Shown here piece by piece: positions 14,957-58,857 of a stretch of DNA of 64,000 nt. Location: contig OZ219816.1 in NCBI GenBank assembly GCA_964291235.2, forward strand, positions 1,984,001 through 2,048,000, given 5' to 3'. A program made the translations under genes and the position numbers. The notes beneath the pieces were generated by a model that was given only the letters and a program-made list of their open reading frames with translations, had not been told where the DNA came from and made no database searches. The stretch is from Vicinamibacteria bacterium. GTDB lineage: Bacteria > Acidobacteriota > Vicinamibacteria > Marinacidobacterales > Marinacidobacteraceae. Each line of letters opens with the position of its first letter. Positions within the stretch are counted from its first letter, which is position 1.

Positions 14957-14974
14957 CCCCACCGGGAGAACTGG
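14957..14974 (+). repeat. 18-bp dispersed unit CCCCACCGGGAGAACTGG (copy 1)
   Basis: Exact match to the copies at 15052-15087. Confidence 0.85.
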
Positions 14975-15051
14975 CGCGTTGCGGCGCTCTGCGTTGCGTT
15001 TCGGTCGAAATACACTCGGTATTCCTCCCTCACGCGCCTTGTCAGCCGGGC

Positions 15052-15087
15052 CCCCACCGGGAGAACTGGCCCCACCGGGAGAACTGG
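15052..15087 (+). repeat. Perfect tandem dimer of the 18-bp unit (copies 2 and 3)
   Basis: CCCCACCGGGAGAACTGG x2, flanked by GGGC and GCCTCG. Confidence 0.9.
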
Positions 15088-15274
15088 GCCTCGCCCCTCT
15101 CGGCGCTCACGGGGGTTTCACCACAGGTTGCTAGGAACGCCGGCACCCGCTGGCCGCAGGCCGGTGGAACGGTGCGTCCCCGATCGCTGCCGGTCGGCAA
15201 ACGGGTCGACCGGCTCCCCGTGACCCCCGATCACGGGAACGCCGCCTAGCCCCCGCCAACCGGACCACTCCGCG

Positions 15275-15868
15275 ATGACCCATCCTGCCCTCCCCGGCCG
15301 CCATCTCACTCCCCGGAACCGGCACGCCTGGCGCCGCTGGCTCGACGCGAACCACGCGGCCGTTGCCGAGGTCTGGGTCGTCTTCTACAAGAAGCCCGCG
15401 CAGCGTCCTGGCCGTCCTAACCTCACCTACGGACAGGCCGTCGAGCACGCCATCTGTTTCGGCTGGATCGACGGCCTCAAGCGGCGTATCGACAACGACC
15501 GCTACGCCCACCGGTTCAGCCCGCGCAAGACGGACAGCCGCTGGTCGGAGAGCAATCGCGAGCGGCTGGCGCGAATGCGGGAGCGGAACCTTATGACCCC
15601 CGCCGGCGAAGAAGCGGTCGCGGCCTCGATCCGAACGGGAGCATGGGACCAACCCGCGTTCTCGGCGCCCGCCGAAGCACCACCGGAGCTGCTCGCGGCT
15701 CTTGACGACGATCACGAGGCCCGCGCGGGATGGGAGGGGCTTTCCCCTTCCGCCCAGCGTCGCTACAAGGTCTGGATCGGGATGGCCAAACGGGACGAAA
15801 CCCGGGCCCGCCGGCTGGCGGAGAGCCTTCGGCTGCTCCGCCGGGGCGAGAAACTGGGAATGCGGTAG
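15275..15868 (+). CDS. YdeI/OmpD-associated (bacteriocin-protection) family protein
   Basis: WRRWLDANH, AICFGWIDG, FSPRKTDSRWSESN and AKRDETRARR motifs. Confidence 0.9.
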   Translation: MTHPALPGRHLTPRNRHAWRRWLDANHAAVAEVWVVFYKKPAQRPGRPNLTYGQAVEHAICFGWIDGLKRRIDNDRYAHRFSPRKTDSRWSESNRERLARMRERNLMTPAGEEAVAASIRTGAWDQPAFSAPAEAPPELLAALDDDHEARAGWEGLSPSAQRRYKVWIGMAKRDETRARRLAESLRLLRRGEKLGMR

Positions 15869-15957
15869 CCCGTGCCCGCGCACTTTGAGCTCCTTCCGGC
15901 CGGCCCGGGCGCGGCGACTCCGGAGTAGCGAAAACGAGCGGTTCACCAGCCGGAGGC

Positions 15958-17204
15958 ATGCCGCGGTTCGGGTTTTGGGCGCGGGTCTTCGGCCCGTTCG
16001 CTTTCGGGTACTTCATCTCGTACCTCCTGCGCTCGGTCACCGCGATCATCGCCCCCGACCTGGTCCGGGATCTCGGGCTGTCCGCTTTCGGGGTCGGCCT
16101 CCTGGGAAGCACCTACCTGCTCGCCTTCGCGGTGGCCCAGATACCGATCGGCGGGGCGCTGGACCATTTCGGACCACGGCGGACCAACGGAGTCCTCCTG
16201 GTGGCCGGCGCGGTGGGCTGTTTCCTCTTCGGGGTCGCCGAGTCGTTCCCGATTCTGATCGTGGGACGCTTCCTCGCCGGCCTCGGGGTCGCCGCATGCC
16301 TGATGGCTTCGTTCAAGGCATTCGTGCTCTGGGCGCCCCCGGCCCGGCTCCCGTTCCTGAACGGGTTCGTCATGGCGGTCGGGTCCACCGGAGCGCTGGT
16401 GGCCACCACCCCGACCGAATGGCTGCTCGGTCTGGTGAGTTGGCGCGAGCTGTTCGTCCTGCTCGCCGTGTCCCTGGTTGCCGGCTCCGCGGTCTTGTTC
16501 GCCCTGGTTCCTCGGGACCCGAAACCCGCTGGCCGGGACGCGCCCTCCGGCCTCCTCGCGGCCACCGTGGGCATCCGCGAGGTGGTGCGGCGGCGGCTGT
16601 TCTGGAGCATCGCTCCGCTGGGAGTGGTCCACCAGGCCACCTTCCTGGGGATTCAGAGCCTTTGGGCGGGCCCGTGGCTCTCCGGCATCGCGGCAATGGA
16701 TCGGGACGCAGTCGCAATCCACCTCCTGATCCTCGCCGTCGCCATGGTGCTCGGCTACCTGATCACCGGAGCGGTCGCGGGAACGCTCGCGAAGCGGGGG
16801 TTCTCGTCGCTCACCCTGCTGGGCGCCACCAACCTGGCGTTCACCGCTACGCTCGTGGTGCTGGCGTCCGGGTGGACGGGAGCGCCAGCCGCGCTGTGGG
16901 CGGCGTCGGGGCGGCGTTCGGTTTCTTCGGCTCGTCCGGGATGCTGAGCTTCGCGATTCTCGTGGCCCGCTATCCCTCGGGACTCGCGGGAAGGGTGACC
17001 TCCGCGCTCAACCTGCTCATCTTCGCGGCGGCCTTTTCGGTGCAGACCGGATTTGGCGCGGTGATCGACGGGTTCCGGGACGACGGCCTCGAGCTCCCCT
17101 TCGCGGGTGCCGGGTTTGCCGTCGCGTTCCTGATCGCCGCCGCCCTCCAGGGCCTCGCGCTGGCCTGGTTACGGCTCACCCGCTCCTGGCGGACCGAGAG
17201 CTAG
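15958..17204 (+). pseudogene. MFS transporter interrupted by a frameshift (11-nt duplication near 16898-16917)
   Basis: N-terminal part (LDHFGPRR MFS motif A) is in one frame to about 16900; C-terminal helices (AAFGFFGSSGMLSFAIL...GRVTSALN) are in another frame ending at 17204. Confidence 0.75.
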
Positions 17205-17648
17205 CCCGCATTTCTTATGCTCGTATCCCCAGCGCAGATCACGCCAACCTCTTGATGATTTCGGGAGACACGCGTCAGGGGCGGCCCCAACTGCGCGGAC
17301 AGCGTGAAGGGGCGGACGAGCCCCCACCGGGAGAACTGTGCCGGCCTCCATCCAGGCCGGCACAGCGAGCCGCAGGCCCGCGTTGGCATGGGCCCCGCCC
17401 GTCGGCATGGTTCCCGTCTCGGCCCGTACCCCATTCGGCTAGGTGGCCCGACCTTGTCTGTCGCCAACGTGGCCCAGTTCTGGATGTCGATTGACACGCA
17501 CGGAACCAGGAACGGTGTAACGCCCCCTGCCGCTGCGACCTCAGGGCTGGTTGGGCTCCCCGTCGGGAGCGGGACCATCCTGACACTGGGGGGCCCGTCC
17601 CGCCGCCCGCCTACGGCGGGCTGTGCCGGTCTGGAGACCGGCGCTCCC
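17202..17648. mobile_element. Non-coding composite repeat (family B): one TIR-like end plus an inverted pair of REP-like palindromes
   Basis: 17202-17315 aligns by eye with the reverse complement of 58681-58800, and 17595-17642 matches the reverse complement of 58523-58570. REP-like hairpins at about 17340-17367 and 17620-17648. Confidence 0.7.
17322..17339 (+). repeat. 18-bp dispersed unit (copy 4; CCCCACCGGGAGAACTGT), an empty predicted IS110 target
   Basis: Sits between GAGC and GCCGGCC of a REP-like palindrome; the context GAGCCCCCACCG matches both bridge-RNA target guides. Confidence 0.8.
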
Positions 17649-17652
17649 GATC

Positions 17653-18600
17653 CTACCGGGACGACAGGCTGCGGTGGACCAGGCGCACAAAGCGTTCGGC
17701 GTTCACGAACCCGGCGGCATCGGGGGACCAGCCGATGTCCGTGCCGATCCCGGTGACCAGCGCGACGTAGTCGGCAGCGGCGTCATCCTCACTCTGGCCG
17801 GCGGCGACGCGCTCGCTGATCCGCTCGCGGGCCATCTTGAGGGCCTCCGCGTACTTCATCAGGTTGGCGCGGTCGGTGACCGGGCCGTGGCCGGGAATGA
17901 TCTTCGTCTGGCCGTCGGTTGCCCCGGCGACCTTTTCCGCGGCCGCGATCAGGCCGTCAACATGCCCCCCGGAATCCACATCGATGAACGGGAAGGCGCC
18001 GTTGAAAAACAGATCTCCCATGTGGACGACGTTGGCGCCCCGGAAAAAGATGATGGAGTCACCGTCGGTATGGGCGGTGGGAGCGTGGACCGCCTCGATG
18101 GCGAGACCGTTCCAGTGCAGGGTGACGCCGTGCTCAAAGGTCACCACCGGCAGCGCTTCCGGAGCCGCCTGGTCACTGCGGCCAACCAGGTCGGCGAATT
18201 CCGCCGGGTTCATCCGCCGCCGCACGTTTTCGTGGGCGACGATCAGGCTGCCCGCCTTCCCGAGATTCTCGTTCCCCCCGGTGTGGTCGCCGTGCCAGTG
18301 CGTGTTCACCACGAAGCGCACGGGATCGGTAGTAATCGCGCGCACCGCGGCGAGGATCTTGTCGGTGAGAGGCGCGTACTGGTCGTCCACCAGCAGAGCG
18401 CCGTCGGCGCCGGTGGAGAGACCGATGTTGCCCCCGCGCCCGAAAAGAACGTGGACGCCGCCGCCCAGGTCCTCACTGGTGATCGCGACCGCGTCCCAGT
18501 CCTGGTCCTGGGCCGCCACCGGCACTGCGGCAAGCAATAGGCAGATGGCGAAGAGGGCAAACCGCCACGGGCGGCGATGGGATGGATCAGTCAGGAACAT
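17653..18600 (-). CDS. Secreted MBL-fold metallo-hydrolase (cyclase-like)
   Basis: NTHWHGDHTGGN, AHTDGD, HMGD and IPGHG motifs; signal peptide. Confidence 0.92.
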   Translation of the reverse strand: MFLTDPSHRRPWRFALFAICLLLAAVPVAAQDQDWDAVAITSEDLGGGVHVLFGRGGNIGLSTGADGALLVDDQYAPLTDKILAAVRAITTDPVRFVVNTHWHGDHTGGNENLGKAGSLIVAHENVRRRMNPAEFADLVGRSDQAAPEALPVVTFEHGVTLHWNGLAIEAVHAPTAHTDGDSIIFFRGANVVHMGDLFFNGAFPFIDVDSGGHVDGLIAAAEKVAGATDGQTKIIPGHGPVTDRANLMKYAEALKMARERISERVAAGQSEDDAAADYVALVTGIGTDIGWSPDAAGFVNAERFVRLVHRSLSSR

Positions 18601-18678
18601 GGCGAAACAAACTCCGGAAGAGGGACACGCGTGGCCACCGGGGTCCCGGCGGCCTGACGAAGGACCCGGCGAGGGAAA

Positions 18679-20487
18679 TCAGCAGCCGACGCAGGCGTTG
18701 TTGTTCTGGGCGCCGTAGCTGGCGAGGAGCGCGATCGTCTCCGGGAATGGATTGATGCGCTGAACGGGGCCGTTGGCGAGGTCGATGGTCGTCTGCCCCG
18801 TGCGGGCCACCGCGAGCGGATCCGCACCGTGGTCGATCAGGTACTGCACCATCTCGGTGTGGCCGCGGGAGGCCGCGTGGTGGATGGTGGTGTAGCCGTT
18901 GTGGTCGCGCACGGCTGCATCGGCGCCCACTTCCTCCACGAGGTACTGGACCGCCGGGAGCCAGGCCTCCGGCGCGTGCCGGTGGGAGTTCGCCGCGAGT
19001 CCGAGGCCATAGCCCACCCCGGCCGCGGCATGGATCGGATACACCGCCGGATCGCCGTACTCGGCCGGCGGCAGGCCGGACGGATCCGGATCTCCCTCCT
19101 CGATGAGCATCGGCAGACGCCGCCGCTCCGCCACCTTGACGGTCGGGATGTGGGGGTCGGCGCCGTTCGCCACCAGCAACTTCATCGCCGGGATGTCCAG
19201 CGCGTAGGCAGCGCGCCAGAAGGCGGTCGCTCCGCTGCGGTCCACCCCGAGCTGGTCCACGTTGTAAACGGTGTACCAGAGCGAGCTGTCGATGCGGGCA
19301 TTCACGTCGGCCCCCGCGTCGATCAGCGCCTGAATGAGCTCAAGGTGGGACGTCTCCTGCTGGAGATAGTCGGCGGGCTGCGGGTGACGGGCCTTCGGAA
19401 TCCACTGGGTGTTGACCGCCCCGTAGAGCGGGGTGGCGTTTTGCGAATCCGCGAGGGTCGGGTCGCCGCCGCGCTCGAGCAGTTTCATGGCCAGGTCGAA
19501 ATGGCCGTTCACGGTCGCCATCAGCAACGGGGTGGTGCGGCTCCCCTCGGCGCGCTGGTTCACGTCGGCGCCCGCGTCGATCAGCGCCGTCGCGGTCTCG
19601 ATCCGGCCCTCGCGAGCCGCAAAGAGCAGCGCGGTCAATCCACCGTGGGTGCCGACGCGGTCCTCATAGGTGAGCGGCCGCGGCTCGTCGGGATCCCGCC
19701 GGTCGTACTCGTCCGGGTTCAGGGGATCCGGCGGAAGGCCCGCGGCCCCCGTACCTCCCGTTCCGGAAGGCCGGCGGTCCGTCCCGTTGGCGGGGAGCGG
19801 GCGCTCGGCCTGCAGGATGCCGCTTCCGCCGCGCTGCTCGGCAAGGCGCGCCTGCCGTTCGCGACGTTCTTCCATGTCCAGCCGCGCGCGCTCGACCACG
19901 TCCAGCACTCCGGCGGTCACCGAGGCGTCGGCACCGGCGTCCATCAGGGTCTTGACCGCCGCGACCCGGCCCCGGACCGCCGCGAACATCAGCGGAGTGA
20001 GCCCCCATTCCTCCTCCCGCGCGTCCACGGAAGCCCCGTGGGCGAGCAGGGAAGACACCACCTCCGGCACCCCTGCGGTCGCCGCCAGGTGGAGCGGTTG
20101 GGCTCCGGTCGAAGTGAAGGGGTCCGCCGGAGCCCCCGCCAACAGCAGGGCCTCGGCAACGCCCGCCTTCCCGGCCGCCGCAGCCACATGGAGCGGCATA
20201 TGGCTTCCCAGCCGCGTCGTCGCCTCAAGATCCGCACCGGCCGCGATCAACACCTCGGCAACCTCGCGGTTCCCCGTCTTCGCCGCCCAGTGGAGCGCCG
20301 TAAAGCCGTCGCCCTGCGCCGCGTTCACGTCCGCTCCCGAACGGAGCTCCACCTTCAGGGTCTCGACGTCACCGCGCTTCGCCGCATCCAGAACGGGGGA
20401 CATCAGCGCCGCGTACCCCACTCCGACCAGCACGCCCACCACCGTGAGCAGCGCCGCCAGGCCAATCCATCGCTTTCCGATCTTCAT
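18679..20487 (-). CDS. Secreted ankyrin-repeat protein (cassette copy 2)
   Basis: Multiple GxTALHWAA/TPLMFAA repeats; RBS AAGAGAGG upstream of ATG 20487; C-terminal NNNACVGC. Confidence 0.9.
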   Translation of the reverse strand: MKIGKRWIGLAALLTVVGVLVGVGYAALMSPVLDAAKRGDVETLKVELRSGADVNAAQGDGFTALHWAAKTGNREVAEVLIAAGADLEATTRLGSHMPLHVAAAAGKAGVAEALLLAGAPADPFTSTGAQPLHLAATAGVPEVVSSLLAHGASVDAREEEWGLTPLMFAAVRGRVAAVKTLMDAGADASVTAGVLDVVERARLDMEERRERQARLAEQRGGSGILQAERPLPANGTDRRPSGTGGTGAAGLPPDPLNPDEYDRRDPDEPRPLTYEDRVGTHGGLTALLFAAREGRIETATALIDAGADVNQRAEGSRTTPLLMATVNGHFDLAMKLLERGGDPTLADSQNATPLYGAVNTQWIPKARHPQPADYLQQETSHLELIQALIDAGADVNARIDSSLWYTVYNVDQLGVDRSGATAFWRAAYALDIPAMKLLVANGADPHIPTVKVAERRRLPMLIEEGDPDPSGLPPAEYGDPAVYPIHAAAGVGYGLGLAANSHRHAPEAWLPAVQYLVEEVGADAAVRDHNGYTTIHHAASRGHTEMVQYLIDHGADPLAVARTGQTTIDLANGPVQRINPFPETIALLASYGAQNNNACVGC

Positions 20488-20563
20488 GCCCTTACCTCTC
20501 TTGCTGGTCAGTCTGTTCCGGTGGGTTCGTTTCCTGTGGGTTTGGGCTGTGGATCTCTCCCGG

Positions 20564-21952
20564 CTACACCGCCTGCGACAGGGAGAACGCTCCGGTGCTG
20601 TTCCCGAAGGTCTCCACATCATCCAGCCCCAGCTTGTGCAGCAACGTCAGCATCACGTTCGCCAGCGGGGTTCCCGGCTTGGCCCGCAGGTGCAGATTGT
20701 GCTCGAGCGCGCCGTTGGCGCCGCCCGCCACGAAGAACGGAACCCGCTTGTGGTTGTGGATGTTCGGGTCGCCCATCGGAGACCCGTAGAGGATCATCGT
20801 CTTGTCCAGCATCGTCCGATCGTCTTCCTCAATGCTCCGCAGCTTCTCCATGAAGTAGGGAACCAGGCTCACGTGATACCGGTTGATGCGGCCGAGGACC
20901 TCGACGCGCTCGGGATCGTTCCCGTGGTGCGAAGCCGGGTGGAACGCGGTGGCTTCGCCGCTCTCGGGGTACACGCGGCTCGACGCGTCCCGTCCCAGCT
21001 TGAGGCTGAACACCCGGGTCATATCCGACTGGAAGGCGAGCGCCTGCAGGTCGAACATGATCTTCACGTGCTCGTCGAACGAATCCGGCACCCCTGACGG
21101 GGCGTCGGGAAGCTCGCGAAGCTCGCCGCTCGTGTTCCGCTCGACAATCCGCTGGATCCGCCGCTCCATCTCCCGGATGTCGGTCATGTAGCGGTCCATC
21201 CGGCGCAGATCCTGGGGGTCCAGCGCGGTCTTCAACCGGCTCACCTCGGAGCCGATGAAATCGAGCACGCTCTGGCGCGCCTGCTGCCGGGCCACACGAC
21301 CTTCGGGGGTGCCCCCCGCCCCGAACAACTGGTCGAAGACGATCCGCGGATCCCGGGTCATCGGGAGCGGCTCCGTCGGCGACGCCCAACTGATGGTGTC
21401 CGTGTACACGCAGGCATACCCGTAGGCGCAGCCGCCCGCCTGGTCCACCGTCTCGATGCAGAGCTGCATCGAGGGAATCGGCGTGTCCTGGCCGAAACGC
21501 TGCGCGTACATCTGGTCCAGCGAGGTTCCCGCGAACACATCCGAACTCTCGGTCTGCTTGGGATACGACTGGGTCAGGAACGCCGCGCTGGAACGGAAGT
21601 GGTCGCCGCCGATCTCGCGCGCGGTGCGCGCCTCCGCGGGCTCCACGTCGCAATCGCTCACGATCGTGACGTAATCCCGAACCGGTTCCAGGGAACTGAG
21701 GGCGCCCTTCGAAAGATCGAAGTCCGCGCCTTCCTGCTCCGGCGTCCACAGATGCTGCGAGCGTCCGTACTTGTTGCTGCCGGCTGCGCCGTGCACGATC
21801 TCGATCGCCACGAGCCGCGTCGGGTCGTCGGCGGTCGGTTTCGCCATCACGCTCGCCGGAACCATCGCGTCCAAGAACGGGAGCGCCACCGTTGCTCCCG
21901 CTCCGCGAAGGAACGTACGCCGGGGAAGGCTCTTGCCGGTCAGGTAGTTCAT
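20564..21952 (-). CDS. DUF1552 domain protein (Tat-exported; cassette copy 2)
   Basis: PRRTFLRGAGATVALPFLDAM, LAFQSDMTRV, FHPASHH and GSPMGDPNIHNH motifs. Confidence 0.9.
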   Translation of the reverse strand: MNYLTGKSLPRRTFLRGAGATVALPFLDAMVPASVMAKPTADDPTRLVAIEIVHGAAGSNKYGRSQHLWTPEQEGADFDLSKGALSSLEPVRDYVTIVSDCDVEPAEARTAREIGGDHFRSSAAFLTQSYPKQTESSDVFAGTSLDQMYAQRFGQDTPIPSMQLCIETVDQAGGCAYGYACVYTDTISWASPTEPLPMTRDPRIVFDQLFGAGGTPEGRVARQQARQSVLDFIGSEVSRLKTALDPQDLRRMDRYMTDIREMERRIQRIVERNTSGELRELPDAPSGVPDSFDEHVKIMFDLQALAFQSDMTRVFSLKLGRDASSRVYPESGEATAFHPASHHGNDPERVEVLGRINRYHVSLVPYFMEKLRSIEEDDRTMLDKTMILYGSPMGDPNIHNHKRVPFFVAGGANGALEHNLHLRAKPGTPLANVMLTLLHKLGLDDVETFGNSTGAFSLSQAV

Positions 21953-22216
21953 GGTGTTCTCCTGTCAGGGCGTCCCGGCCGTCGTGTCCGCGGACGGCGG
22001 GACTGGAGTCTGCGCGCGGGGATGGGCTCCCCACAAAGTACGGGATCGTTGAGCTCCCATAGCCGGACTAGGATAGGAAATCAACCGGCCCGGCGCAAGC
22101 GGCAATCGATTGGTCGGAAGCGCTCGGAGAAAGACCGCGGGACACCGCCCGGGCCCACGGGAACCGGGCGGGCTCGACGCGTGGCGCGGCGCCGCGTCCC
22201 CTGGAAGGGCAGAAGC

Positions 22217-24736: not shown

Positions 24737-24745
24737 GGTGGCGCC

Positions 24746-26728: not shown

Positions 26729-26779
26729 GGCCGTCCCTCTCCGTTTGTTGAAAGTCTTCGCCTCGGGATACCCCACCAC

Positions 26780-40660: not shown

Positions 40661-40669
40661 GCCAGCCGG

Positions 40670-47551: not shown

Positions 47552-47645
47552 CGGGCGATTGTAGTGAGGAGCCCCCGCCGCAAGACCGGCATGAACGCCC
47601 GGCGACAGGCCCCGGGGCGACGTGATCCGGTTCGGAGGCTGGCTG

Positions 47646-49187: not shown

Positions 49188-49219
49188 GGGTGTGGGAGCG
49201 GCTCCGGGCGCGACGGAAA

Positions 49220-50593: not shown

Positions 50594-50694
50594 GAAAGAT
50601 CCTCCCCCGGGGCCCGCGGCGCGGAGAAACTACCCTAAACGGCCTGTGAACGAAATGAGGCGCCCCCGTTCCTCCGGTTCGGGCTACTGACCGC

Positions 50695-51756: not shown

Positions 51757-51757
51757 A

Positions 51758-52219
51758 ATGCACCGGATGCCGCGTCCCCGCGCCCGGAGCGCCAACGCGT
51801 TCGGACTGCTGCTTTTGGCCGGACTCCTCATCACCGGTTGCAACTCGGGGACCACGCCCGGGTTCCCCGTTCCCGACTTCCAGGTTGCGCTCGACAACCC
51901 GTTCCCGCTTCGGCTGGGTGATCTCGGCTACGTTCAGGCCCCGGACGGCTTCTTGTATCTGAGCATCCAGTCGGTGGGCATCGACACTCGTTGCCCACCG
52001 GATTCCACCTGCGATGAACCCGGTTTCCTGGAAGTGTTCATGGAGCTTGAGACCGCCGAATCCCAGGGGTCGTCGGCAATGCAGATTCCGCCCGCGGGGG
52101 ATGGGGTCATCACCTATCGGGGTTTCGAGATCCGGGCCCACGAGGTGCAGCCTCCCGGCCGGGCGGGCCGGATCCCGCCCACCGATTACATCCTTCTGAT
52201 GTCGGTCACGCGGCGGTAG
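51758..52219 (+). CDS. Hypothetical lipoprotein
   Basis: Lipobox LITGC; DTRCPPDSTC Cys pair. Confidence 0.65.
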   Translation: MHRMPRPRARSANAFGLLLLAGLLITGCNSGTTPGFPVPDFQVALDNPFPLRLGDLGYVQAPDGFLYLSIQSVGIDTRCPPDSTCDEPGFLEVFMELETAESQGSSAMQIPPAGDGVITYRGFEIRAHEVQPPGRAGRIPPTDYILLMSVTRR

Positions 52220-52301
52220 CAGCCTGTGGCAAGACCCCCACAGCCCAGTCCTCCCGGTGGGGGTCTCGGCGCTCACGGGAGTCTCACCACAGGACTGCCA
52301 G
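52217..52301. mobile_element. Internally deleted family-A MITE carrying an inverted 18-bp unit (copy 5, 52245-52262)
   Basis: Ends TAGCAGCCTGTGGCAAGACCCCC and CTCGGCGCTCACGGGAGTCTCACCACAGGACTGCCAG match the 14894-15134 element; the interior contains the reverse complement of CCCCACCGGGAGGACTGG. Confidence 0.7.
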
Positions 52302-52364
52302 GCGAGCACCGGCCGTTCGGAACCTAGAATCCCGGCTTCGCCGAGCGCGGAAACGGAGGAATTC

Positions 52365-53447
52365 ATGCGTTACTTCAAGGACATCCTGACAATCACCGGA
52401 GCGGCGGTGCTGGTCGGATCCGCCGCGTGCGGCGGAAGCGAAATGGAGGAGCCTGCGGAACCGCAGGAAATGGTTTCGGAGCACGACGACTTCCCCAACC
52501 CCTTCACCGCCGAAGCGATGTGGGGCGACCTGCCCGGCGATCGCACCTGGGGTGCGGTCAGCGCCATCTATCCGGCCGCCGACGGCAACCTGTGGGCGGC
52601 GGAGCGGTGCGGGGCCAACTTCTGCGGCGACCGGCCGGACGTGGACACCGTCGTCCTCTTCAGCCCCGAGGGTGAAGCGCTGCAGAGTTTCGGCGCCGGC
52701 CTCATCGCCTGGCCCCACGGGATGTTCGTGGACCATGAAGGCAACGTCTGGGTCACCGACGCGAAGGGCTTCGTTCCCGACGAGCGGGTGCCGGAAGGCC
52801 TCGGCCACTTCGTCATCAAGTTCAGCCCCGAAGGCGAGGTGCTGATGCGGCTCGGCGAGCCCGGGATGGCGGGAGACGCGGACGGACAGTTCAACATGCC
52901 CTCCGATGTGCTCGTGACGCCGGACGGCGTCATCTTCGTAGCCGACGGCCACAACGCTTCGGGGAACAACCGGATCGTCAAGTTCTCGGCGGACGGGGAG
53001 TTCCTGATGAGCTTCGGGGAGACGGGAACCGGCCCCGGTCAGTTCCGGGATCCGCACGCCCTGGCGCTCGATTCGATGGGCCGTCTCTTCGTGGGTGACC
53101 GGGCCAACAACCGCATCCAGCTCTTCGACCAGGAAGGCAACTTCATCGAGGAGTGGCTGCAGTTCGGGCGGCCGAGCGGCGTCTTCATCACCGCCGACGA
53201 CACGATCTATGTCGCGGATTCCGAGTCCACCTCGGAAGCGAACCCGGGCTTCGGCCGGGGCATCCGGGTCGGGAGCGCCGTTGACGGCACGGTCCACTAC
53301 TACCTGCCGGACGACGTGTCGGATCTCGAGCCCGGCGCGGAACCCGTCACCAGCGGACCGGAAGGCATCGCGGTGGACGCGATGGGGAACGTCTATGGGG
53401 GCGAGGTCCGCCAACAGATGGTCCGAAAGTTCACGCGGAGCGAGTAG
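52365..53447 (+). CDS. NHL-repeat beta-propeller lipoprotein (peptidyl-alpha-hydroxyglycine amidating lyase-like)
   Basis: Lipobox SAAC; PHGMFVD, FNMPSDV, FVADG, DPHALA and DRANNRIQ repeats. Confidence 0.85.
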   Translation: MRYFKDILTITGAAVLVGSAACGGSEMEEPAEPQEMVSEHDDFPNPFTAEAMWGDLPGDRTWGAVSAIYPAADGNLWAAERCGANFCGDRPDVDTVVLFSPEGEALQSFGAGLIAWPHGMFVDHEGNVWVTDAKGFVPDERVPEGLGHFVIKFSPEGEVLMRLGEPGMAGDADGQFNMPSDVLVTPDGVIFVADGHNASGNNRIVKFSADGEFLMSFGETGTGPGQFRDPHALALDSMGRLFVGDRANNRIQLFDQEGNFIEEWLQFGRPSGVFITADDTIYVADSESTSEANPGFGRGIRVGSAVDGTVHYYLPDDVSDLEPGAEPVTSGPEGIAVDAMGNVYGGEVRQQMVRKFTRSE

Positions 53448-53455
53448 CCGGCGGC

Positions 53456-54049
53456 GTGTCCTGCGCGGGTGTCGCCGCGGTCTCTTTCGACGTGGACGGC
53501 ACTCTCTTTTCCGACCGCTTTCTCAGGATCGAGGTCGCGCTGGAGGCCATCCGGCGGGGTTCACCCGGGCCCCTCCTCGAACTCGGTCGGCTTGCCCGGC
53601 GCGCCGAATCCTCCCGGCGCGCCGGCGCTCTCGACCCTGCCTGGGAGTCTGACCGTCCCGGCCGTCTCGAAGCGGAGGATCGTCTGCTGCTTCCGGTCAT
53701 CCGGCGCCGGGGGCCCCGGGCCGGCGCCGCCGGCCTCCTGGCCCGCCTCCGTCCCCGCCCCGTCATCGCCGTCTCGGACTTCGTCGCGGAAGCCAAGCTG
53801 CGGGCGCTCGGCCTCCGCGACCGTTTCGATCACACCTACGCCGCCGAGGCCCATGGCGCCCTGAAGCCCGATCCCCGGGTCTTTCACGCCGCCCTCGCCG
53901 ACCTCCGCATCCTGCCGGCCGCCCTTCTCCACATCGGCAACCGGCCGGACACCGACGGAGAAGCCGCCCGCGCCGCCGGCTGCCGCGTCCTCATCCTGGG
54001 CGCCGACATTGCGTCGCTCGGCGAGGTCGAGAACCTGCTCGAACCCTGA
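53456..54049 (+). CDS. HAD-superfamily hydrolase
   Basis: FDVDGTL (motif I), KPDP (motif III) and HIGNRPDTD (motif IV variant). Confidence 0.8.
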   Translation: MSCAGVAAVSFDVDGTLFSDRFLRIEVALEAIRRGSPGPLLELGRLARRAESSRRAGALDPAWESDRPGRLEAEDRLLLPVIRRRGPRAGAAGLLARLRPRPVIAVSDFVAEAKLRALGLRDRFDHTYAAEAHGALKPDPRVFHAALADLRILPAALLHIGNRPDTDGEAARAAGCRVLILGADIASLGEVENLLEP

Positions 54050-54150
54050 GTCCAGGCGGCCCCTGGCAGCGAAAGCTCGCGAATCCGGACACAATGGGAC
54101 GGTGGCGCGCCGGCCGGCCGCCGCCCCAACCCTCCGAGGAGGTGCTGTCA

Positions 54151-55296
54151 ATGAAGATCGAACCGGTGGTAATGACCACTCTCGCCGCCGCCGGGTTCGC
54201 CCTGCTGTCCGGCTGCGCGGGCGAGCCTCCGGACCGGATGGAGCCCGCGTCCCCGGGACCGGCGGTCAAGGGCGGCGACGACCGGACCGGCGAGTACGAC
54301 CCGGTCCCCGGCTGGTGGAAACCCGCGCCGGACCATGTGGAACCCTGGGTCTGGGGACAGGTTTCGGGGGTGGCGGTGGACACCCCGGACCGGATCCTCG
54401 TGGGCATCTGGGGCGACCGGGATGCCGAGGGCCGCGAGCGCGAGGGGAGCACCAACTACGTTGTCGCCGTGGACCGGGACGGCAACATCACCGAGAACTG
54501 GTCCCAATGGGACTCGATCTTCAACAAGCCCCACCAGCTCTACATCAGTCCCTACGACCCCGAGCGCCACGTCTGGATCGTGGAGCGCGGGGGCGGCAAG
54601 AACGTCCACATGCAGATCCTCAAGTTCTCGAACGACGGGAGCGAACTGGTGATGCAGCTCGTAGATCCGGATCACCCCACCACCCGGGCGGAGGCGCGCG
54701 CCAACCCGAACCCGGGCCCCTTCGAGTACGGCGATCCCGCGGTGATGGCGTTCCTGCCGAACGGCGACTTTCTGGTCGGTGACGGCTACTGGCACTCACG
54801 GATCATCAAGTACAACGCGGAGGGCGAGCACCTGATGGAGTGGGGCGAACTTGGAAGCGGTCCGGGACAGTTCGACCTGGTTCACGGGCTGGCGGTGGAC
54901 CGGAACCGCCGCGTTTACGTCGGAGATCGCTCCAACGACCGGGTCCAGATCTTCACCGAGGACGGCGAGTACATCGACGAGTGGCCCGACATCTCCGACC
55001 CGGTCGGGGTCTTCATCGACGAGAACGACGCCGTCTGGGTCATCTCCGCGGTGCTGAACCGCATCCTGAAGTACAGCCCGGACGGGGAACTCCAATACCA
55101 CCTGGGCGCCTACGGGGGCACCCGGGGCGGCTTCCCCGGCGGCCTGTCGCGGCCGCACCAGATCGATGTGGACGAGGAGGGCAACCTCTACATCGCAAGT
55201 TGGGACGGGGGTTGGATGGACAAGTTCATTCCCAAGCCGGACGCGGATCCGACCAAACTGGTGGGAAGAGGGCTGGTTCTGGAGAACCCGGAATGA
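54151..55296 (+). CDS. NHL-repeat beta-propeller lipoprotein (PAL-like)
   Basis: Lipobox LSGC; VGDGY, GPGQFDLVHGLAVD and DRSNDRVQ motifs. Confidence 0.85.
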   Translation: MKIEPVVMTTLAAAGFALLSGCAGEPPDRMEPASPGPAVKGGDDRTGEYDPVPGWWKPAPDHVEPWVWGQVSGVAVDTPDRILVGIWGDRDAEGREREGSTNYVVAVDRDGNITENWSQWDSIFNKPHQLYISPYDPERHVWIVERGGGKNVHMQILKFSNDGSELVMQLVDPDHPTTRAEARANPNPGPFEYGDPAVMAFLPNGDFLVGDGYWHSRIIKYNAEGEHLMEWGELGSGPGQFDLVHGLAVDRNRRVYVGDRSNDRVQIFTEDGEYIDEWPDISDPVGVFIDENDAVWVISAVLNRILKYSPDGELQYHLGAYGGTRGGFPGGLSRPHQIDVDEEGNLYIASWDGGWMDKFIPKPDADPTKLVGRGLVLENPE

Positions 55297-55356
55297 CCTG
55301 ATGTCATTCCCGCTCGCCTGCCGTCACCGGGGAGTCCACCCACCTGGAGTGCCGAC

Positions 55357-56361
55357 ATGACCCGCCAGACATCGATACCGCTGCTGGCCCTGGGGCTCAC
55401 CCTGCTTTGGCCCGCACCGCGCCTCGGCGCCCAGGTCGTGAACGAGGCCGGTGAGGAGATCGTCGCCACCTTCTCGATCGTCGCGCGTGATCCAGCCACC
55501 GGGGAACTGGGCGTGGCCGTGCAGTCGCGGGCGTTTCGCGCCGGCGCCATCGTTTCGTACGCCCGGGCGGGGGTCGGAGCCATCGCGACCCAGGCGGCGG
55601 CGAATCAGACCTACGGACCGCGCGGACTCGAACTCCTGGGGCTGGGGCTTTCGCCCGACGAGGTGGTCGAACACCTGACCGGTTCGGACCCGGGGCGTGA
55701 CCGCCGCCAACTCGCCGTCATCGACGACCGGGGACGGGTCCGCGCGTACACCGGATCCGCGACGAGCGCCTGGGCGGGACACCTCGAGGGCGAGAACTAC
55801 TCGGTACAAGGCAACATCCTGGCCGGAGAAGCGGTCGTCGCGGCGATGGCCGAGGCATTCGAGTCGTCCAGCGGGCCTCTCGCACTCCGGCTGATGGACG
55901 CCCTCGATGCCGGCGAGGCCGCCGGGGGCGACGCGCGCGGCAAGCAGGCGGGCGGGGTTTTGGTGGTGAAACCGATCGGCGACTCCGGCCGAACCAACGA
56001 CCGCTGGGTGGACGTACGGGTGGACGACCACGAAGAGCCGTTCAAGGAACTGCGCCGCCTGGTCAACATGTCCGTTTCGCGCATTCACACGCGCGACGCC
56101 CGGACGCTCGCCGCGGCGGGCCGCTTCCCCGAAGCCATTGCCGCGCAGCGGGAAGCCATCGCCATCGTGCCCGGGGAAGATCAGCTCTATTACGGGCTGG
56201 CCCGGCTCTACGCCCGCGCGGGCGACGCCGCGGGTGCGGTAGCGGCGCTCGGCCAAGCCATCGGTATCGACGCGCGCTGGCGCGAACTGGCGGCATCACA
56301 GACCGACTTCGACACCATCCGCGAAAACGCGGCGTTCCAGAGACTGCTTACCAGCCGGTAG
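55357..56361 (+). CDS. DUF1028 (Ntn-hydrolase-like) protein with C-terminal TPR
   Basis: TFSIVARD, GAIATQA, QGNIL, GGDARGKQ and RVDDHEEP motifs; signal peptide. Confidence 0.88.
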   Translation: MTRQTSIPLLALGLTLLWPAPRLGAQVVNEAGEEIVATFSIVARDPATGELGVAVQSRAFRAGAIVSYARAGVGAIATQAAANQTYGPRGLELLGLGLSPDEVVEHLTGSDPGRDRRQLAVIDDRGRVRAYTGSATSAWAGHLEGENYSVQGNILAGEAVVAAMAEAFESSSGPLALRLMDALDAGEAAGGDARGKQAGGVLVVKPIGDSGRTNDRWVDVRVDDHEEPFKELRRLVNMSVSRIHTRDARTLAAAGRFPEAIAAQREAIAIVPGEDQLYYGLARLYARAGDAAGAVAALGQAIGIDARWRELAASQTDFDTIRENAAFQRLLTSR

Positions 56362-56385
56362 GGAAAACCCGGGAGGAACCCTGTC

Positions 56386-56868
56386 ATGACCCATCGCCAG
56401 ATCCCGCTTCTGTTCGCTCTGACGTTACCCCTGGCCTGCGCCACCGAAACCGCCCCCCAGCAGGAGACTCCCGAGGAGGCTGCCGGGCTGGAGCGGCACT
56501 ACATCAACCCCCGCTCGGCGGCGGATCCCGATGTACCGCCCTTCAGCGGCGGCGTGATGGTGGGCGACACCTTCTACGTCGCGGGAACCATCGGGCTGCT
56601 CCCCGATCAGACGGTGCCCGAGACCGCCCAGGAAGAGGCTCGCCTCGTCATGACCAGTGTGCAAAACACCCTGGAGGCGGCCGGACTGACCATGGACGAC
56701 CTGGTATTCGTGCAGGTCTATTCGTCGGACGTCGCGGACTACGACGCCTTCAACGAGGTGTACCGCACGTTCTTCACCCAGGAATACCCGGCCCGCGCCT
56801 ACCTGGGCTCGGGCACGCTGCTCTTCGGGGCGCGGTTCGAGGTGCTGGGGTTCGCGGCGAAGCGCTAG
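56386..56868 (+). CDS. RidA/YjgF family protein with lipoprotein signal
   Basis: PPFS, FNEVY..FF, PAR (catalytic Arg) and FEV motifs; N-terminal LPLAC lipobox. Confidence 0.85.
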   Translation: MTHRQIPLLFALTLPLACATETAPQQETPEEAAGLERHYINPRSAADPDVPPFSGGVMVGDTFYVAGTIGLLPDQTVPETAQEEARLVMTSVQNTLEAAGLTMDDLVFVQVYSSDVADYDAFNEVYRTFFTQEYPARAYLGSGTLLFGARFEVLGFAAKR

Positions 56869-56984
56869 TTCGGATTTCTCATACTTCCGCCGTAGAGATC
56901 GATGCAGGATGGTGCTCCTCTTCGGCGGGAACCCAACTAGCCTTGATGTCGGACAGGCACGGGAGCCCCCTATAGGATCGGCGA

Positions 56985-57175
56985 CGTCCTGCGGGAGCCG
57001 AGATTCGGCTGCCGTTGTATCAACTCAGGTTGGCCAATCCGCCGGGAGTACTAACTGAGCCCCGGTGCCGCGAGCACCTACGGTGGACACGTACCCCGAC
57101 GGATGGCCGTGATGGACGACCAGTGGAGAGTCGGTTCCAATCGAGAACCAGTATAGGGGCTGGACAGCATCGCGG
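56985..57175 (+). ncRNA. Predicted IS110 bridge RNA (5' hairpin, target-binding loop, donor-binding loop)
   Basis: Two stem/internal-loop/hairpin modules (57032-57108 and 57111-57171) whose loop strands match the target flanks and the element ends; boundaries approximate. Confidence 0.8.
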
Positions 57176-57219
57176 CGCGGCGGACCTCCGGCGGAGCGCA
57201 AGCTCGAAGGAAGACAGCG

Positions 57220-58482
57220 ATGAAGCAGAAGCTGAGCTGGTTCGTGGGCATCGACTGGGGCGAGCAGAGCCACCAGGTGTGCCTGTGCGACAGGCGCGGG
57301 AAGGTGCGCGGGGAGCGCGCCTTCGCGCACAAGGGATCGGGGCTGGCGGCCCTGGTGAAGTGGCTTAGGAAGCAGACGGGTGTGCCGCCGGCGCGGGTGG
57401 CGGTCGCGATCGAGCGGCCGGATGGGGCGGTGGTGGCGACGCTGCTGGAGGCGGGGTTTGCGGTCTATGCGGTGAACCCGCGGCAGACGAGCCACCTGCG
57501 GAAGTTCATCTCCCACCCGGGGCACAAGAACGACCGGCGGGACGCCCGGATGTTGGCCACCACGCTGCAGGCGAGCCTGGCGGGGTTCCGCCTGCTGGTG
57601 CCGCTACCGGGGTTGGTGCTGCGGCTGCGGGAGCGGACCCGGACGGCGGACCGTCTGCTCCAGGAGCAGGTCCGGCAGTGCCTGCGGATCCGGAGTGCGC
57701 TGGTGGACTACTTCCCGCAACTGCTGGAGGTGGCCGGCGAGGCGAAGAACCTGGGGGCTCCGTTCTTCCGGGAGTTGTGGGCTCGGGCTTCTACGCCGGC
57801 GAAAGCGCGGAAGGTGTGGTTGTCCACGTTGGAGAAGCTGGTCCGGCGGTATGGAGTGACCCGGATCAGCGCCGCGCGGATCCAGGCGTTGTTCCGGGAG
57901 CCGGCGCTGGTGATGGCGCCGGGGGCGACCGAGGCGGCGGTGGAGACGATCCGCACGGCGCTCGCACAGTTGGAGGTTGTGCGGGCGGAACTCGTCCGGG
58001 CGGAGGGCCAGATGACCCAACTGCTGGACGAGTTCTCGGAGACGGCGGAGGCCGGGGGTGGTTCGGATGCCACGGGCCCGGATCTGGTGAGCGCGTTGCG
58101 CTCGCGCCCGGGCGCGGGGGACAAGGCGCTGGCCCGGTTGTTCGCCTGGGGCTTCGAGGCGCTCTCGGAGGGGAACTACCGCCGTCTGCGCGCCTACTGT
58201 GGGGTAGCCCCGATCGAGGACCAGTCCGGCAAGTCCGCACAGCTCCGGCAACGGCGCGCCGTTCCCAGTTCGCTGCAACACGCCACCTACATCCTGGCGC
58301 GGGGGGTCGTCCGCTGGGACGAGAAGGTGGCGGCCTACAACCGGAAGTTGAAGGCGGAAGGGAAGCACACGGCCCGGCGCCACCGGAGCATCGCGGATCA
58401 ACAACTCCGGGTGCTGTGCGCGATGGCCCGGAACCGAACCCTCTTTGATCCCAACTTCTCCCAGAAGCGGAGGGCCGCCTAA
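57220..58482 (+). CDS. IS110-family transposase/recombinase
   Basis: RuvC-like DEDD residues (GIDWG, AIERP, KNDRRDA), coiled-coil region, and a C-terminal domain with GVAPIEDQSGK (catalytic Ser). Confidence 0.95.
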   Translation: MKQKLSWFVGIDWGEQSHQVCLCDRRGKVRGERAFAHKGSGLAALVKWLRKQTGVPPARVAVAIERPDGAVVATLLEAGFAVYAVNPRQTSHLRKFISHPGHKNDRRDARMLATTLQASLAGFRLLVPLPGLVLRLRERTRTADRLLQEQVRQCLRIRSALVDYFPQLLEVAGEAKNLGAPFFRELWARASTPAKARKVWLSTLEKLVRRYGVTRISAARIQALFREPALVMAPGATEAAVETIRTALAQLEVVRAELVRAEGQMTQLLDEFSETAEAGGGSDATGPDLVSALRSRPGAGDKALARLFAWGFEALSEGNYRRLRAYCGVAPIEDQSGKSAQLRQRRAVPSSLQHATYILARGVVRWDEKVAAYNRKLKAEGKHTARRHRSIADQQLRVLCAMARNRTLFDPNFSQKRRAA

Positions 58483-58487
58483 CGCTC

Positions 58488-58493
58488 TTGCGT
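58488..58493 (+). promoter_or_regulatory. -35 hexamer of the IS110 circle-junction promoter
   Basis: TTGCGT lies exactly 17 nt from TAGGAT (56973-56978) once the right end is joined to the left end through the core. Confidence 0.7.
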
Positions 58494-58857
58494 TCTCGTG
58501 GAAAGTCCACCAGGAGAACTGGGCCGGCCTCCAGGCCGGCACAGCCCGCCGTAGGCGGGCGGCGGGACGGACCTGGCTGGCCGGGATGGCTCCCTCTTTC
58601 GGAGGGACCCCGTGAGCGCGAGTGGCGAGGAACCGCCCGCGGCGCTCCGCGCCGCTGTGCCGACCTGGAGGTCGGCGTTCCCGTGCCTACCCGCTGTCCG
58701 TGCGGTCGGGGTCAGCGCCTGACGCGTTCTCCCGACATTGTCAACAGGTTGGCGTGATCCGCGCGGCACGTGGGGCCATGAGTATGAGAAACCCGGGCTA
58801 AGACACCCGGGGGCTCGCACCGCCCGGCGGGACCAGCCGGGGAGCCCTTCCCCGCGC

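What the first reader, a model, noticed from the sequence alone, without database searches (positions are those of the whole stretch)
14957..58522. An 18-bp unit (CCCCACCGGGAGAACTGG) that behaves like a micro-insertion element
Six copies are present: 14957-14974; a perfect tandem pair at 15052-15087; 17322-17339; inverted at 52245-52262; and one split by IS110 (56967-56970 + 58509-58522). All lie inside other non-coding repeats, and I saw none in genes. At four of five loci the flanks read C^GC (GGGC^GCC, GAGC^GCC twice, AGAC^GCT). Removing exactly 18 nt at the IS110 locus restores GGGAGCGCCGGCCTCCAGGCCGGCACAG, the same REP form seen uninterrupted on the reverse strand at 17621-17648. Fixed length, precise insertion, no duplication, both orientations and tandem addition suggest enzymatic insertion or a recombination scar. 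I know of no described element this small. The mechanism (scar of an IS110/HUH-type enzyme, or templated addition) is inference.
Basis: partly seen in the sequence, partly recalled or inferred. Interest (0 to 1): 0.8.

Follow-up and report, generated by a model that had tools for sequence, protein, structure and literature searches.

The report
18-base insert unit, IS110 landing pad
A fixed 18-base DNA word found in many copies across one family of sponge-associated Acidobacteria is present or absent as a discrete block inside other intergenic repeats, and an RNA-guided IS110 element inserts into it; what writes the word into new places is not known.

Summary
The 18-mer has 83 exact and 77 one- or two-mismatch copies in this 3.45-Mb genome. 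With up to one mismatch it has 7 to 1,566 copies in relatives from four genera of one Vicinamibacteria family. None was found in 12 genomes of two sister families. It is not a fixed part of a longer repeat. Paralogous "empty" sites exist for 84 of 160 copies, at 10 or more positions of a 179-nt MITE, at two positions of REP hairpins, and elsewhere.

New points:
- The block written in is about 20-21 nt ((G/A/C)C + 18 + G/C) and overwrites 2-3 target bases. Position -2 differs from the empty paralogue in 58 of 66 and 180 of 198 comparisons. Net gain is +18 in 139 of 191 cases.
- Copies are full length, intergenic only, and far less diverged (1.9%) than their host repeats (about 15%).
- Related IS110 elements in three genomes sit at one fixed position inside the unit, and their left-end RNA region keeps blocks matching it.
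- Some MITE deletion derivatives join exactly at one unit.

The IS110-scar and reverse-transcriptase readings are not supported. Neither the REP-associated transposase nor IS110 co-occurs strictly with the unit. The writing mechanism is unresolved. The closest analogue is Neisseria dRS3/NIME.

The parts
14957..14974 (+). 18-nt unit, exact copy, inside the MITE (consensus position about 59); left flank CC, right flank CGC ('type 2' flanks)
15052..15087 (+). two exact units head to tail at MITE consensus position about 136 (tcagccgggc^gcctcg)
   Evidence: the same doublet site is filled in other MITE copies and in other genomes
14898..15130 (+). host element: MITE-like repeat (about 179 nt without units) with inverted ends CAGCCTGTGG...CCACAGG(C/T)TG, flanked by CTAG; carries 3 units here
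   Evidence: absent from the syntenic intergenic region of the 8 relatives whose intergenic region was printed (gaps of 20-43 nt in 7 relatives)
17322..17339 (+). unit (1 mismatch) directly 5' of a REP hairpin ('site 1'); left flank GAGC
17340..17361 (+). REP hairpin next to the unit; it folds strongly while the unit itself does not
   Evidence: 53-nt stretch: -17.4 kcal/mol, z -4.29; unit alone -1.4 kcal/mol, z +0.4 to +0.9
17621..17648 (-). REP of the same family without a unit (the rare GGGAGC form)
52245..52262 (-). unit (1 mismatch) forming the only junction between the left and right ends of a MITE whose interior is missing
   Evidence: C2:2036245 is listed among the 7 deletion junctions
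52220..52297 (+). MITE deletion derivative: left end + one unit + right end
56967..56970 (+). first 4 bases (CCCC) of the unit split by IS110, preceded by the REP flank GGGAGC
56971..58506 (+). IS110-family element (5 copies of 97-100% identity in the genome), inserted inside the unit; CC stands on both sides
   Evidence: (NF033542, 141.6 bits, cut-off 140)
56971..57219 (+). non-coding left end of the IS (expected bridge-RNA region) with blocks ATCCGCCGGGAG and GCCCCGGTGC, invariant among ISs of 65-100% protein identity, that match GC + unit positions 1-12
   Evidence: no Rfam match
57220..58482 (+). IS110 transposase gene, 420 aa (DEDD_Tnp_IS110 + Transposase_20)
58507..58522 (+). rest of the split unit (CC ACCAGGAGAACTGG; G8>A), followed by the REP hairpin

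Best explanation
The 18-mer (here S) is a self-contained sequence module of one Vicinamibacteria family. It is gained and lost as a unit inside other intergenic repeats, and it serves as the chromosomal landing site of a lineage of IS110 RNA-guided recombinases.

Shown:
- S is added as a full-length block of about 20-21 nt, (G/A/C)C + 18 + (G/C), that overwrites 2-3 bases of the target. Net gain is mostly +18.
- This happens at many different GC-rich sites of REPs and a MITE, in both orientations, and only between genes.
- The word is identical across four genera, while copy number ranges from 7 to 1,566 and positions are not shared between species.
- Related IS110 elements always insert after the 4th C of S.
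- Some repeat derivatives are joined exactly at one S.

Inferred:
- New copies are made by a sequence-specific DNA strand-transfer reaction that moves a fixed unit, rather than by slippage, by reverse transcription, or by descent alone.
- S-by-S recombination reshuffles the host repeats.

My best guess for the agent is the S-specific IS110 recombinase, or a host-encoded enzyme that recognises the same word, acting on single strands. I give about 0.3 to IS110, 0.15 to the REP-associated HUH transposase, and 0.3 to an unidentified host enzyme. The remaining 0.25 goes to rare illegitimate events followed by selection or gene conversion. No model I could build explains the overwritten bases.
For: - Copy counts: 83 exact, 38 one-mismatch and 39 two-mismatch copies in G000. 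The reversed-word control gave 0 in all genomes with copies.
- Empty paralogues: found for 84 of 160 copies. In G000 plus 114 loci of other genomes, 191 of 391 isolated copies had one, with net +18 in 139, +19 in 43, +17 in 4 and other values in 5.
- Flank rewriting: position -2 differs from the best empty paralogue in 58 of 66 and -1 in 20 of 66, against 0-9% at the other positions. In the pool the figures are 180, 70 and 62 of 198 at -2, -1 and +1. Examples are GAATACCG>GAGC[S]CCCG and GAACGCCG>GAGC[S]GCCG.
- Sites: 296 of 447 copies map into the MITE at 10 or more positions or orientations.
- Integrity: 430 of 448 head matches and 384 of 394 tail matches are full length.
- Age: S copies are 1.9% from consensus, against 14.7% for the MITE backbone columns. 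MITE backbones are 85-88% identical pairwise in five genomes.
- Turnover: at 0 of 27 S loci of low-copy relatives does G000 have an S at the syntenic place.
- Scatter: carriers are spread over the MITE tree, with 5, 5, 10 and 5 changes for 5, 5, 12 and 5 carriers, no better than shuffles.
- IS110: the right junction ...AGT CC|ACCGGGAGAACTGG is present in 14 of 15 related copies and the left junction GC CCCC|TATA(G/C)G in 14 of 15, across G000, G014 and G004 and in different host contexts. Guide-like blocks are conserved.
- Deletion junctions: 7 of 371 scored copies.
- Published preprints report single-strand transfer by IS110 enzymes, including transfer guided by the target-binding loop alone (abstract, section 8).
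Against: - The agent is not identified.
- IS110 number does not follow S number. G013 has 1,566 copies and 1 IS110. The closed genome G031 has 70 copies, no IS110 and no RAYT orthologue.
- The IS110 crossover lies inside S, not at its ends, and standard IS110 chemistry predicts neither an 18-nt insert nor overwritten bases.
- Many copies may share descent with their host repeat, so the number of independent insertions is far below the copy number.
- The tree test has a weak control: only 3 control columns (5, 3 and 3 changes for 5, 8 and 10 carriers) and 15 of 36 branches supported.
- The low divergence of S could reflect selection on a binding site rather than youth.
- No filled/empty pair at one orthologous locus was obtained. 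Short-read contigs break at the repeats and species-level orthologues do not align there.
Confidence: 0.6

Rival explanations
1. Passive spread. S entered each kind of site once, or a few times, by rare illegitimate recombination or template switching from another S copy, taking 2-3 flanking bases along. It then multiplied only because the MITE and REP hosts multiplied and exchanged short patches by gene conversion. The word stays constant because a conserved host protein or RNA binds it and selection keeps it.
For: - Within a site family, the filled copies share the same rewritten flank. The doublet at MITE position 136 shows the same internal variant order in two copies of another genome. 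Both point to descent.
- S is kept in closed genomes that lack IS110 and RAYT.
- Net length varies from 17 to 20, as microhomology joins would.
- In a few cases a longer left flank is converted (AAACGCCG>GAGC[S]GCCG, 4 copies).
Against: - The rewritten zone ends sharply. Position -3 differs in only 3 of 66 and 3 of 198 comparisons, against 88-91% at -2. Copying of variable length should decay gradually.
- Truncated copies are rare.
- Host MITE copies are old (85-88% identity), yet their S copies are nearly identical and scattered on the host tree.
- A 100-fold range in copy number within one genus looks like bursts.
Confidence: 0.25
2. The REP-associated tyrosine transposase (RAYT, an HUH enzyme) cuts and rejoins single-stranded DNA at the borders of S and pastes it next to or inside hairpin-forming repeats.
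For: - A RAYT gene lies at G000:C1:16193-16921 (NF047646, 92 bits, cut-off 80). It is flanked by REP arrays in inverted orientation.
- S sits at the 5' foot or in the 3' arm of REP hairpins.
- Part of S (CACCGGGAGAAC) resembles the REP 5' flank CACGGGAAC. This is by inspection and is weak.
- No target duplication is seen.
Against: - No RAYT orthologue was found in G004 (776 copies, 3 contigs), G018 (259, closed) or G031 (70, closed).
- Two thirds of the copies lie in the MITE, not in REPs.
- HUH cut-and-paste does not change flanking bases.
- There is no bias for one replication strand.
- S has no hairpin of its own.
Confidence: 0.12
3. S is the scar of IS110. The element carries the two halves of S as its own ends, inserts into S-free sites, and later excises its interior, leaving S behind.
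For: - All 15 related IS copies are flanked by the two halves of S, in the same kinds of host context as solo S.
- Excision between the two CC dinucleotides would leave exactly S.
Against: - The conserved guide-like blocks in the IS left end match S itself (GCCCC, CCGGGAG, and GGTG complementary to CACC), which is what a target guide should do.
- S copies outnumber IS copies by 24 to 1,566 to one, and G031 has S without any IS110.
- Published IS110 chemistry restores the pre-existing target (abstract; listing of PMC11208160).
Confidence: 0.05
4. Templated addition by a reverse transcriptase (telomerase- or prime-editing-like), which would explain tandem units and overwritten bases.
For: Overwriting of 2-3 target bases, tandem doublets and triplets (17 and 2 in the pool) and a variable first base would all fit primer extension on a fixed template.
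Against: - RVT_1 was found in only 3 of 26 family genomes. G000, G004, G008, G009 and G014 had no match.
- There are no 5'-truncated copies.
- No conserved master locus carrying S was found among 27 syntenic comparisons.
Confidence: 0.03

Closest known systems
Neisseria dRS3 repeats and neisserial intergenic mosaic elements (NIMEs)
   Same: - A word of about 20 bp, present in hundreds of copies and confined to one group of related bacteria.
- It lies between or inside other intergenic repeat modules.
- It is the integration target of a transposase/recombinase of mobile elements.
- It has been proposed as a site-specific recombination site that reshuffles modules (PMC1797815, passages read).
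- Here: the IS110 target, deletion junctions and chimeric flanks.
   Different: - dRS3 has 6-bp terminal inverted repeats and a variable centre. S is asymmetric, invariant over 18 nt and has no fold.
- dRS3 flanks RS modules in arrays. S is found as a presence/absence block inside otherwise contiguous repeats, with 2-3 bases overwritten.
- The passages I read describe no such filled/empty pairs for dRS3.
REP sequences as targets of IS110-family elements (IS621, ISPpu10 and others) guided by bridge RNA
   Same: An IS110 element with a non-coding left end inserts at one fixed position of a high-copy intergenic word. Sources: PMC11208160, 10.64898/2026.03.19.712850 and PMC1525189, seen only as search listings or the start of the abstract.
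   Different: The target here is not the REP palindrome but a separate 18-nt word that is itself variably present in REPs and in a MITE. The same target position is kept by ISs down to 65% protein identity in three species.
REPINs / RAYT systems and E. coli BIMEs
   Same: The genome has a RAYT flanked by its REPs. REP clusters that contain short constant extra motifs are known from BIMEs (recalled, not checked in a paper). REPIN/RAYT background: PMC3116915 and PMC3337134, seen as listings.
   Different: S is not a palindrome, does not flank the RAYT gene, occurs mostly in a MITE, and persists in genomes without the RAYT.
MITEs and other miniature non-autonomous elements
   Same: High copy number, intergenic location, presence/absence among paralogues.
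   Different: S has no terminal inverted repeats and makes no target duplication. At 18-21 nt it is several-fold below the size I recall for the smallest known MITEs and REPINs. It also overwrites target bases.
DNA uptake sequences (DUS/USS)
   Same: A short word conserved across related genera, in hundreds to more than a thousand copies, in both orientations, sometimes as inverted pairs, and with 'dialect' variants (GAGGAC against GAGAAC).
   Different: As I recall, uptake sequences arise by point mutation, are common inside genes, and have similar counts in related species. S is an insert, is never in genes, and varies 100-fold in number within one genus.

Membership tests
IS110 family (for the 1.5-kb element that splits one unit) | DEDD-type transposase domain plus the IS116/IS110/IS902 C-terminal domain | tested here: met
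   PF01548, 98.6 bits; PF02371, 35.4 bits; NF033542, 141.6 bits, cut-off 140
IS110 family (for the 1.5-kb element that splits one unit) | Site-specific insertion without a long target duplication; a short core repeated at both junctions; a non-coding end that holds guides matching target and donor | tested here: met
   CC on both sides and the same junction in 14 of 15 copies; invariant blocks matching the target, and TATAGGG matching the IS start. The RNA itself was not shown: no Rfam match and no RNA data.
IS110 family (for the 18-mer itself) | Encodes or is bounded by IS110 ends (donor sequences) | tested here: not met
   S shares no sequence with the IS ends. It is the target, not a part of the element.
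REP / REPIN | Imperfect palindrome of 20-40 nt that folds as a hairpin | tested here: not met
   S with flanks gives -1.4 kcal/mol, z +0.4 to +0.9; the neighbouring REP gives z -4.29
REP / REPIN | Copies flank a single-copy RAYT gene and co-occur with it | tested here: not met
   The arrays around the RAYT are REPs without S. S-rich genomes G004, G018 and G031 lack the RAYT orthologue.
MITE | Terminal inverted repeats and a target-site duplication | tested here: not met
   No inverted ends in S; there is no duplication, and instead 2-3 bases are replaced
dRS3 / NIME-like recombination module | High-copy word of about 20 bp that is the target of a mobile-element recombinase | tested here: met
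dRS3 / NIME-like recombination module | Terminal 6-bp inverted repeats (ATTCCC...GGGAAT) and arrays in which the word alternates with RS modules | tested here: not met
   S is asymmetric. It mostly occurs singly inside a repeat; arrays of S with short modules do exist in S-rich genomes.
dRS3 / NIME-like recombination module | Recombination between copies | tested here: inconclusive
   7 deletion junctions and chimeric flanks fit this, but homologous or replicative routes are not excluded
DNA uptake sequence | Biased uptake by a competence system; copies also inside genes | tested here: not met
   0 of 160 copies in genes. Uptake cannot be tested with these tools.
RT-templated repeat addition | A reverse transcriptase in the genome | tested here: not met
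   no RVT_1 match in G000 (0 first-look candidates) and none in 22 of the 25 other family genomes

The most novel reading that the evidence does not exclude
S is the smallest mobile DNA unit yet seen: an 18-nt cargo-less module (written as a 20-21-nt block). A sequence-specific single-strand transferase copies it into new GC-rich sites with replacement of 2-3 target bases. That chemistry is not known from IS, HUH, integron or retro-elements. By spreading, S seeds the genome with landing pads for bridge-RNA recombinases.
Probability: 0.35. Interest if true: 0.9.

Novelty: new variant of a known kind. Interest (0 to 1): 0.75.

Why it matters
- If S is actively written, it would define a new minimal class of mobile DNA and a new insertion chemistry: a fixed block that replaces 2-3 bases, with no duplication.
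- It would also show how bacteria, or their IS110 elements, create and renew safe landing sites for RNA-guided recombinases. That bears on how bridge recombinases choose natural targets and on their use in genome engineering.
- Even on the conservative reading, this would be an analogue outside Neisseria of the dRS3/NIME arrangement; the 2007 paper read said NIME arrays had not been seen in non-neisserial genomes.
- The material is good for study. There are several closed genomes of one genus with 15 to 1,566 copies, and clean filled/empty paralogues.

Tried and rejected
- **Chance.** Rejected (reversed-word controls).
- **Constant part of a longer repeat.** Rejected by the empty paralogues.
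- **Assembly or adapter artefact.** Rejected.
- **Reverse transcriptase.** Rejected.
- **Replication-strand bias expected for single-strand transposons.** None seen (+ and - copies about equal on both arms).
- **Phage attachment site.** 1 exact hit in the viral contig collection.
- **Conserved master locus.** 0 of 27 syntenic places shared.
- **Hairpin in S.** None. The whole MITE copy folds through its inverted ends, but not beyond shuffles (z -1.48).
- **Rfam family in the IS and flanks.** None.
- **Alleles in reads.** Four runs were laid on window 13800-17800. All are contigs that stop at the repeats (about 14920 and 15098), so they say nothing on filled versus empty alleles at these loci. 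The joints listed there come from paralogous copies.
- **Orthologous filled/empty pairs between species.** The intergenic DNA is not alignable, or the whole host repeat is missing.
- **Models of an 18-nt circle recombining at a 2- or 3-nt core,** at the IS110 core or at the unit border. Worked through by hand; none reproduces the observed flanks.
- **Match CGGGAGCC at IS position 22.** Dropped as a guide, because one search shows it lies in a covarying stem.
- **Literature.** No paper holds 'Marinacidobacterium', and none holds Vicinamibacteria + sponge + repeat + transposase. I did not search for the word itself, and supplements were not seen.
- **The search of earlier findings.** It was closed.

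Full report
**What is there.** Three copies are exact, two have one mismatch, and one is split by an IS110 element. Chance expects 0.12 matches in the window. The window is G000:C2:1984001-2048000 of a 3.45-Mb, 68% G+C genome in two contigs. Genome-wide there are 83 exact copies, 38 with one mismatch, 39 with two and 34 with three; the last group is partly chance.

**Where it occurs.** With up to one mismatch, S is found in all 15 other genomes searched of the same genus. Counts run from 8 to 1,566: G013 1,566, G004 776, G001 747, G008 692, G000 121, and the closed G009 only 15. In a second draw of the family it was found in genus g1 13 of 13, g2 1 of 1, g4 3 of 3 and g13 1 of 1. In g14 it was found in 1 of 4 genomes, as a single copy. 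It was not found in g3 (0 of 2) or g15 (0 of 1). It was also not found in the 12 genomes of two sister families. The reversed word gave 0 in every genome that has copies. Of the 80 rows shown, all but three single hits (a Georgenia, a Pseudarthrobacter and a gammaproteobacterial MAG) are MAGs titled Vicinamibacteria, Candidatus Marinacidobacterium or Acidobacteria. Sponge metagenome runs hold parts of the window. So the word is identical across at least four genera, while the repeats that carry it differ between them.

**It is a discrete present/absent block.** I joined the 22 nt left and right of each of the 160 copies (two mismatches or fewer). This finds ungapped "empty" paralogues elsewhere in the genome for 84 of them. 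The main host is a MITE-like element of about 179 nt, with inverted ends and CTAG/TTAA flanks. Of 51 full copies in G000, 31 carry no S and the others carry 1 to 5. In G000 plus 114 loci of other genomes, 296 of 447 copies map into this element at 10 or more positions or orientations. The other hosts are REP hairpins, filled either directly 5' of the stem or inside the 3' arm, and further small repeats. Filled and empty paralogues can be 95-97% identical over 150-200 nt of flank. Copies are full length: 430 of 448 matches to the first 11 bases, and 384 of 394 matches to the last 11, have the rest of S. The exceptions are chance words in genes, one-base indels and a few partial tandem pieces. 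Tandem arrays exist, with 17 doublets and 2 triplets in the pool. No copy lies clearly in a gene, and there is no bias for a replication arm.

**The flanks are rewritten.** This is new relative to the finding. Against the best empty paralogue, the base two to the left of S differs in 58 of 66 comparisons and the base next to S in 20 of 66. All other 42 positions differ in 0-9%. In the pool of other genomes the figures are 180, 70 and 62 of 198 for -2, -1 and +1, and 3 of 198 for -3.

- The common REP reads GGGAAC|GCCGR when empty (131 copies; only 2 read GGGAGC) and mostly GGGAGC[S]GCCGR when filled (6 of 9).
- Other conversions are GAATACCG>GAGC[S]CCCG (44 copies), CCTTGTCA>CCGC[S]GTCA and TGAACCGC>TGGC[S]CCGC.
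- Where the target already had GC, the filled form often has AC or CC, as in GGGCGCCT>GGAC[S]GCCT.
- The net change is +18 in 139 of 191 cases, +19 in 43, +17 in 4 and other values in 5.

So the block written in is about 20-21 nt, (G/A/C)C + S + (G/C), and it replaces 2-3 target bases with a sharp left limit. Part of this uniformity is shared descent within a site family. That the changed position is always the same one, in every family and genome, is not explained by descent.

**Age and turnover.** S copies inside the MITE set differ from the S consensus at 1.9% of positions (19 of 990). The host backbone columns, which include 12-nt outer flanks, differ from their consensus at 14.7%. MITE backbones stripped of S are 85-88% identical pairwise in five genomes. 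Carriers of S at a given MITE site are not grouped on a tree of the backbones: 5, 5, 10 and 5 changes are needed for 5, 5, 12 and 5 carriers, as with shuffled labels. The control is weak, however. Only three backbone columns qualified, needing 5, 3 and 3 changes for 5, 8 and 10 carriers, and 15 of 36 branches have support of 80 or more. For 27 S loci of low-copy relatives that map with both flanks into G000, G000 has no S at the syntenic place. The MITE at 14898-15130 is itself missing at the syntenic spot in the 8 relatives whose intergenic region I printed. Hence S is either young and repeatedly added, or it is kept constant by selection or conversion.

**Link to IS110.**
- The 1.5-kb element at 56971-58506 encodes an IS110-family transposase and has five copies of 97-100% identity.
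- It sits after the fourth C of S, with CC on both sides.
- Related elements in G014 (82% and 68% protein identity) and G004 (64-65%) show the same right junction (...AGT CC|ACCGGGAGAACTGG) in 14 of 15 copies and the same left junction (GC CCCC|TATA...) in 14 of 15.
- Their outer flanks belong to different hosts: REP, MITE end, REP arm.
- Their non-coding left ends keep two invariant blocks, ATCCGCCGGGAG and GCCCCGGTGC. These match GC + S positions 1-12. They also keep TATAGGG, which matches the IS start. This is what target and donor guides of a bridge RNA should look like (background: listing; abstract). No RNA evidence was obtained, and Rfam gave nothing.

So S, with its GC prefix, is the programmed landing site of this IS lineage. 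It is not the IS's scar.

**Recombination at S.** Seven of 371 scored copies are the only junction between two non-adjacent parts of the MITE, including the window copy at 52245. Some copies have a MITE flank on one side and a REP on the other. This fits exchange between S copies. A preprint reports that an IS110 enzyme can transfer a top strand between target-type junctions with the target-binding loop alone (section 8). Another reports single-strand excision (abstract).

**Who writes S.**
- Reverse transcriptase is out. RVT_1 was found in 3 of 26 family genomes and not in G000.
- The RAYT is real and is flanked by inverted REP arrays. Its orthologue was not found in G004, G018 and G031, which hold 776, 259 and 70 copies.
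- IS110 family genes number 1 in G013, which has the most copies, and 0 in G031.
- Thus no known candidate co-occurs strictly with S, although old copies could outlive their enzyme.
- I could not derive the overwritten bases from IS110, HUH or integron chemistry.

I therefore commit only to this: S is a discrete module that is moved or copied as a fixed unit by a sequence-specific DNA transaction, and it is used by IS110 as its target. For the agent I give 0.3 to IS110, 0.15 to RAYT, 0.3 to an unknown host enzyme and 0.25 to the passive reading.

**Comparison with what is known.** The nearest described case is the Neisseria dRS3 word in NIME arrays. It is 20 bp, present in hundreds of copies, the target of a phage-borne transposase, and proposed as a recombination site (PMC1797815, passages). 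S differs from it in being asymmetric and invariant, and in lying inside otherwise contiguous repeats as a filled/empty block with flank rewriting. REPs as IS110 targets are known (listings). S fails the defining tests for REP/REPIN, MITE and uptake sequences.

**Verdict.** On novelty I call it a new variant of a known kind (dRS3/NIME-like recombination word), with a real chance (about 0.35) that it is a new minimal class of mobile DNA.

Noticed in passing
window 16898: All four public runs laid on the window have contigs that lack 11 bases present here, inside a coding-looking stretch. This is either an indel error of the assembly or a real strain difference.
   Followed up: no
G000:C1:15800-17600 (outside the window; locus L179): The RAYT gene (243 aa; NF047646, 92 bits) has three REPs upstream and five in the opposite orientation downstream, spaced about 120 nt apart. 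This is a textbook RAYT-REP arrangement in an acidobacterium.
   Followed up: partly
G000:C2:1720154-1720719 (outside the window): Five tandem units of about 137 nt, each holding a mutated unit plus a REP-like hairpin. Two unit variants alternate, which suggests the whole block was amplified after the unit was in place.
   Followed up: no
window 14898-15130 and about 50 other places in the genome: The host MITE has inverted ends and is flanked by CTAG or TTAA. By recall, this points to an IS5-type transposase as its mobiliser. No autonomous partner was looked for.
   Followed up: no
G000:C1:784252-784300, C1:932094-932142, C2:204557-204605, C2:1262436-1262484, C2:1533441-1533489: One REP carries two units in opposite orientation, one at the 5' foot and one in the 3' arm. 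This turns a 7-bp stem into a potential 18-bp inverted repeat with a 13-nt loop.
   Followed up: no
G031, G016, G009 and others: A variant of the unit with A13>G (GAGGAC) is common in several genomes, like a dialect. In one S-rich genome the doublet at MITE position 136 is variant + standard in both copies seen (locus L040).
   Followed up: partly
locus L220 (G008) and G004/G008 IS110 copies of 43% identity: In the one copy where the junction was visible, a distant IS110 lineage also ends ...AGT CC|ACCGGGAGGACTGG. This suggests that a second lineage uses the same target position.
   Followed up: partly
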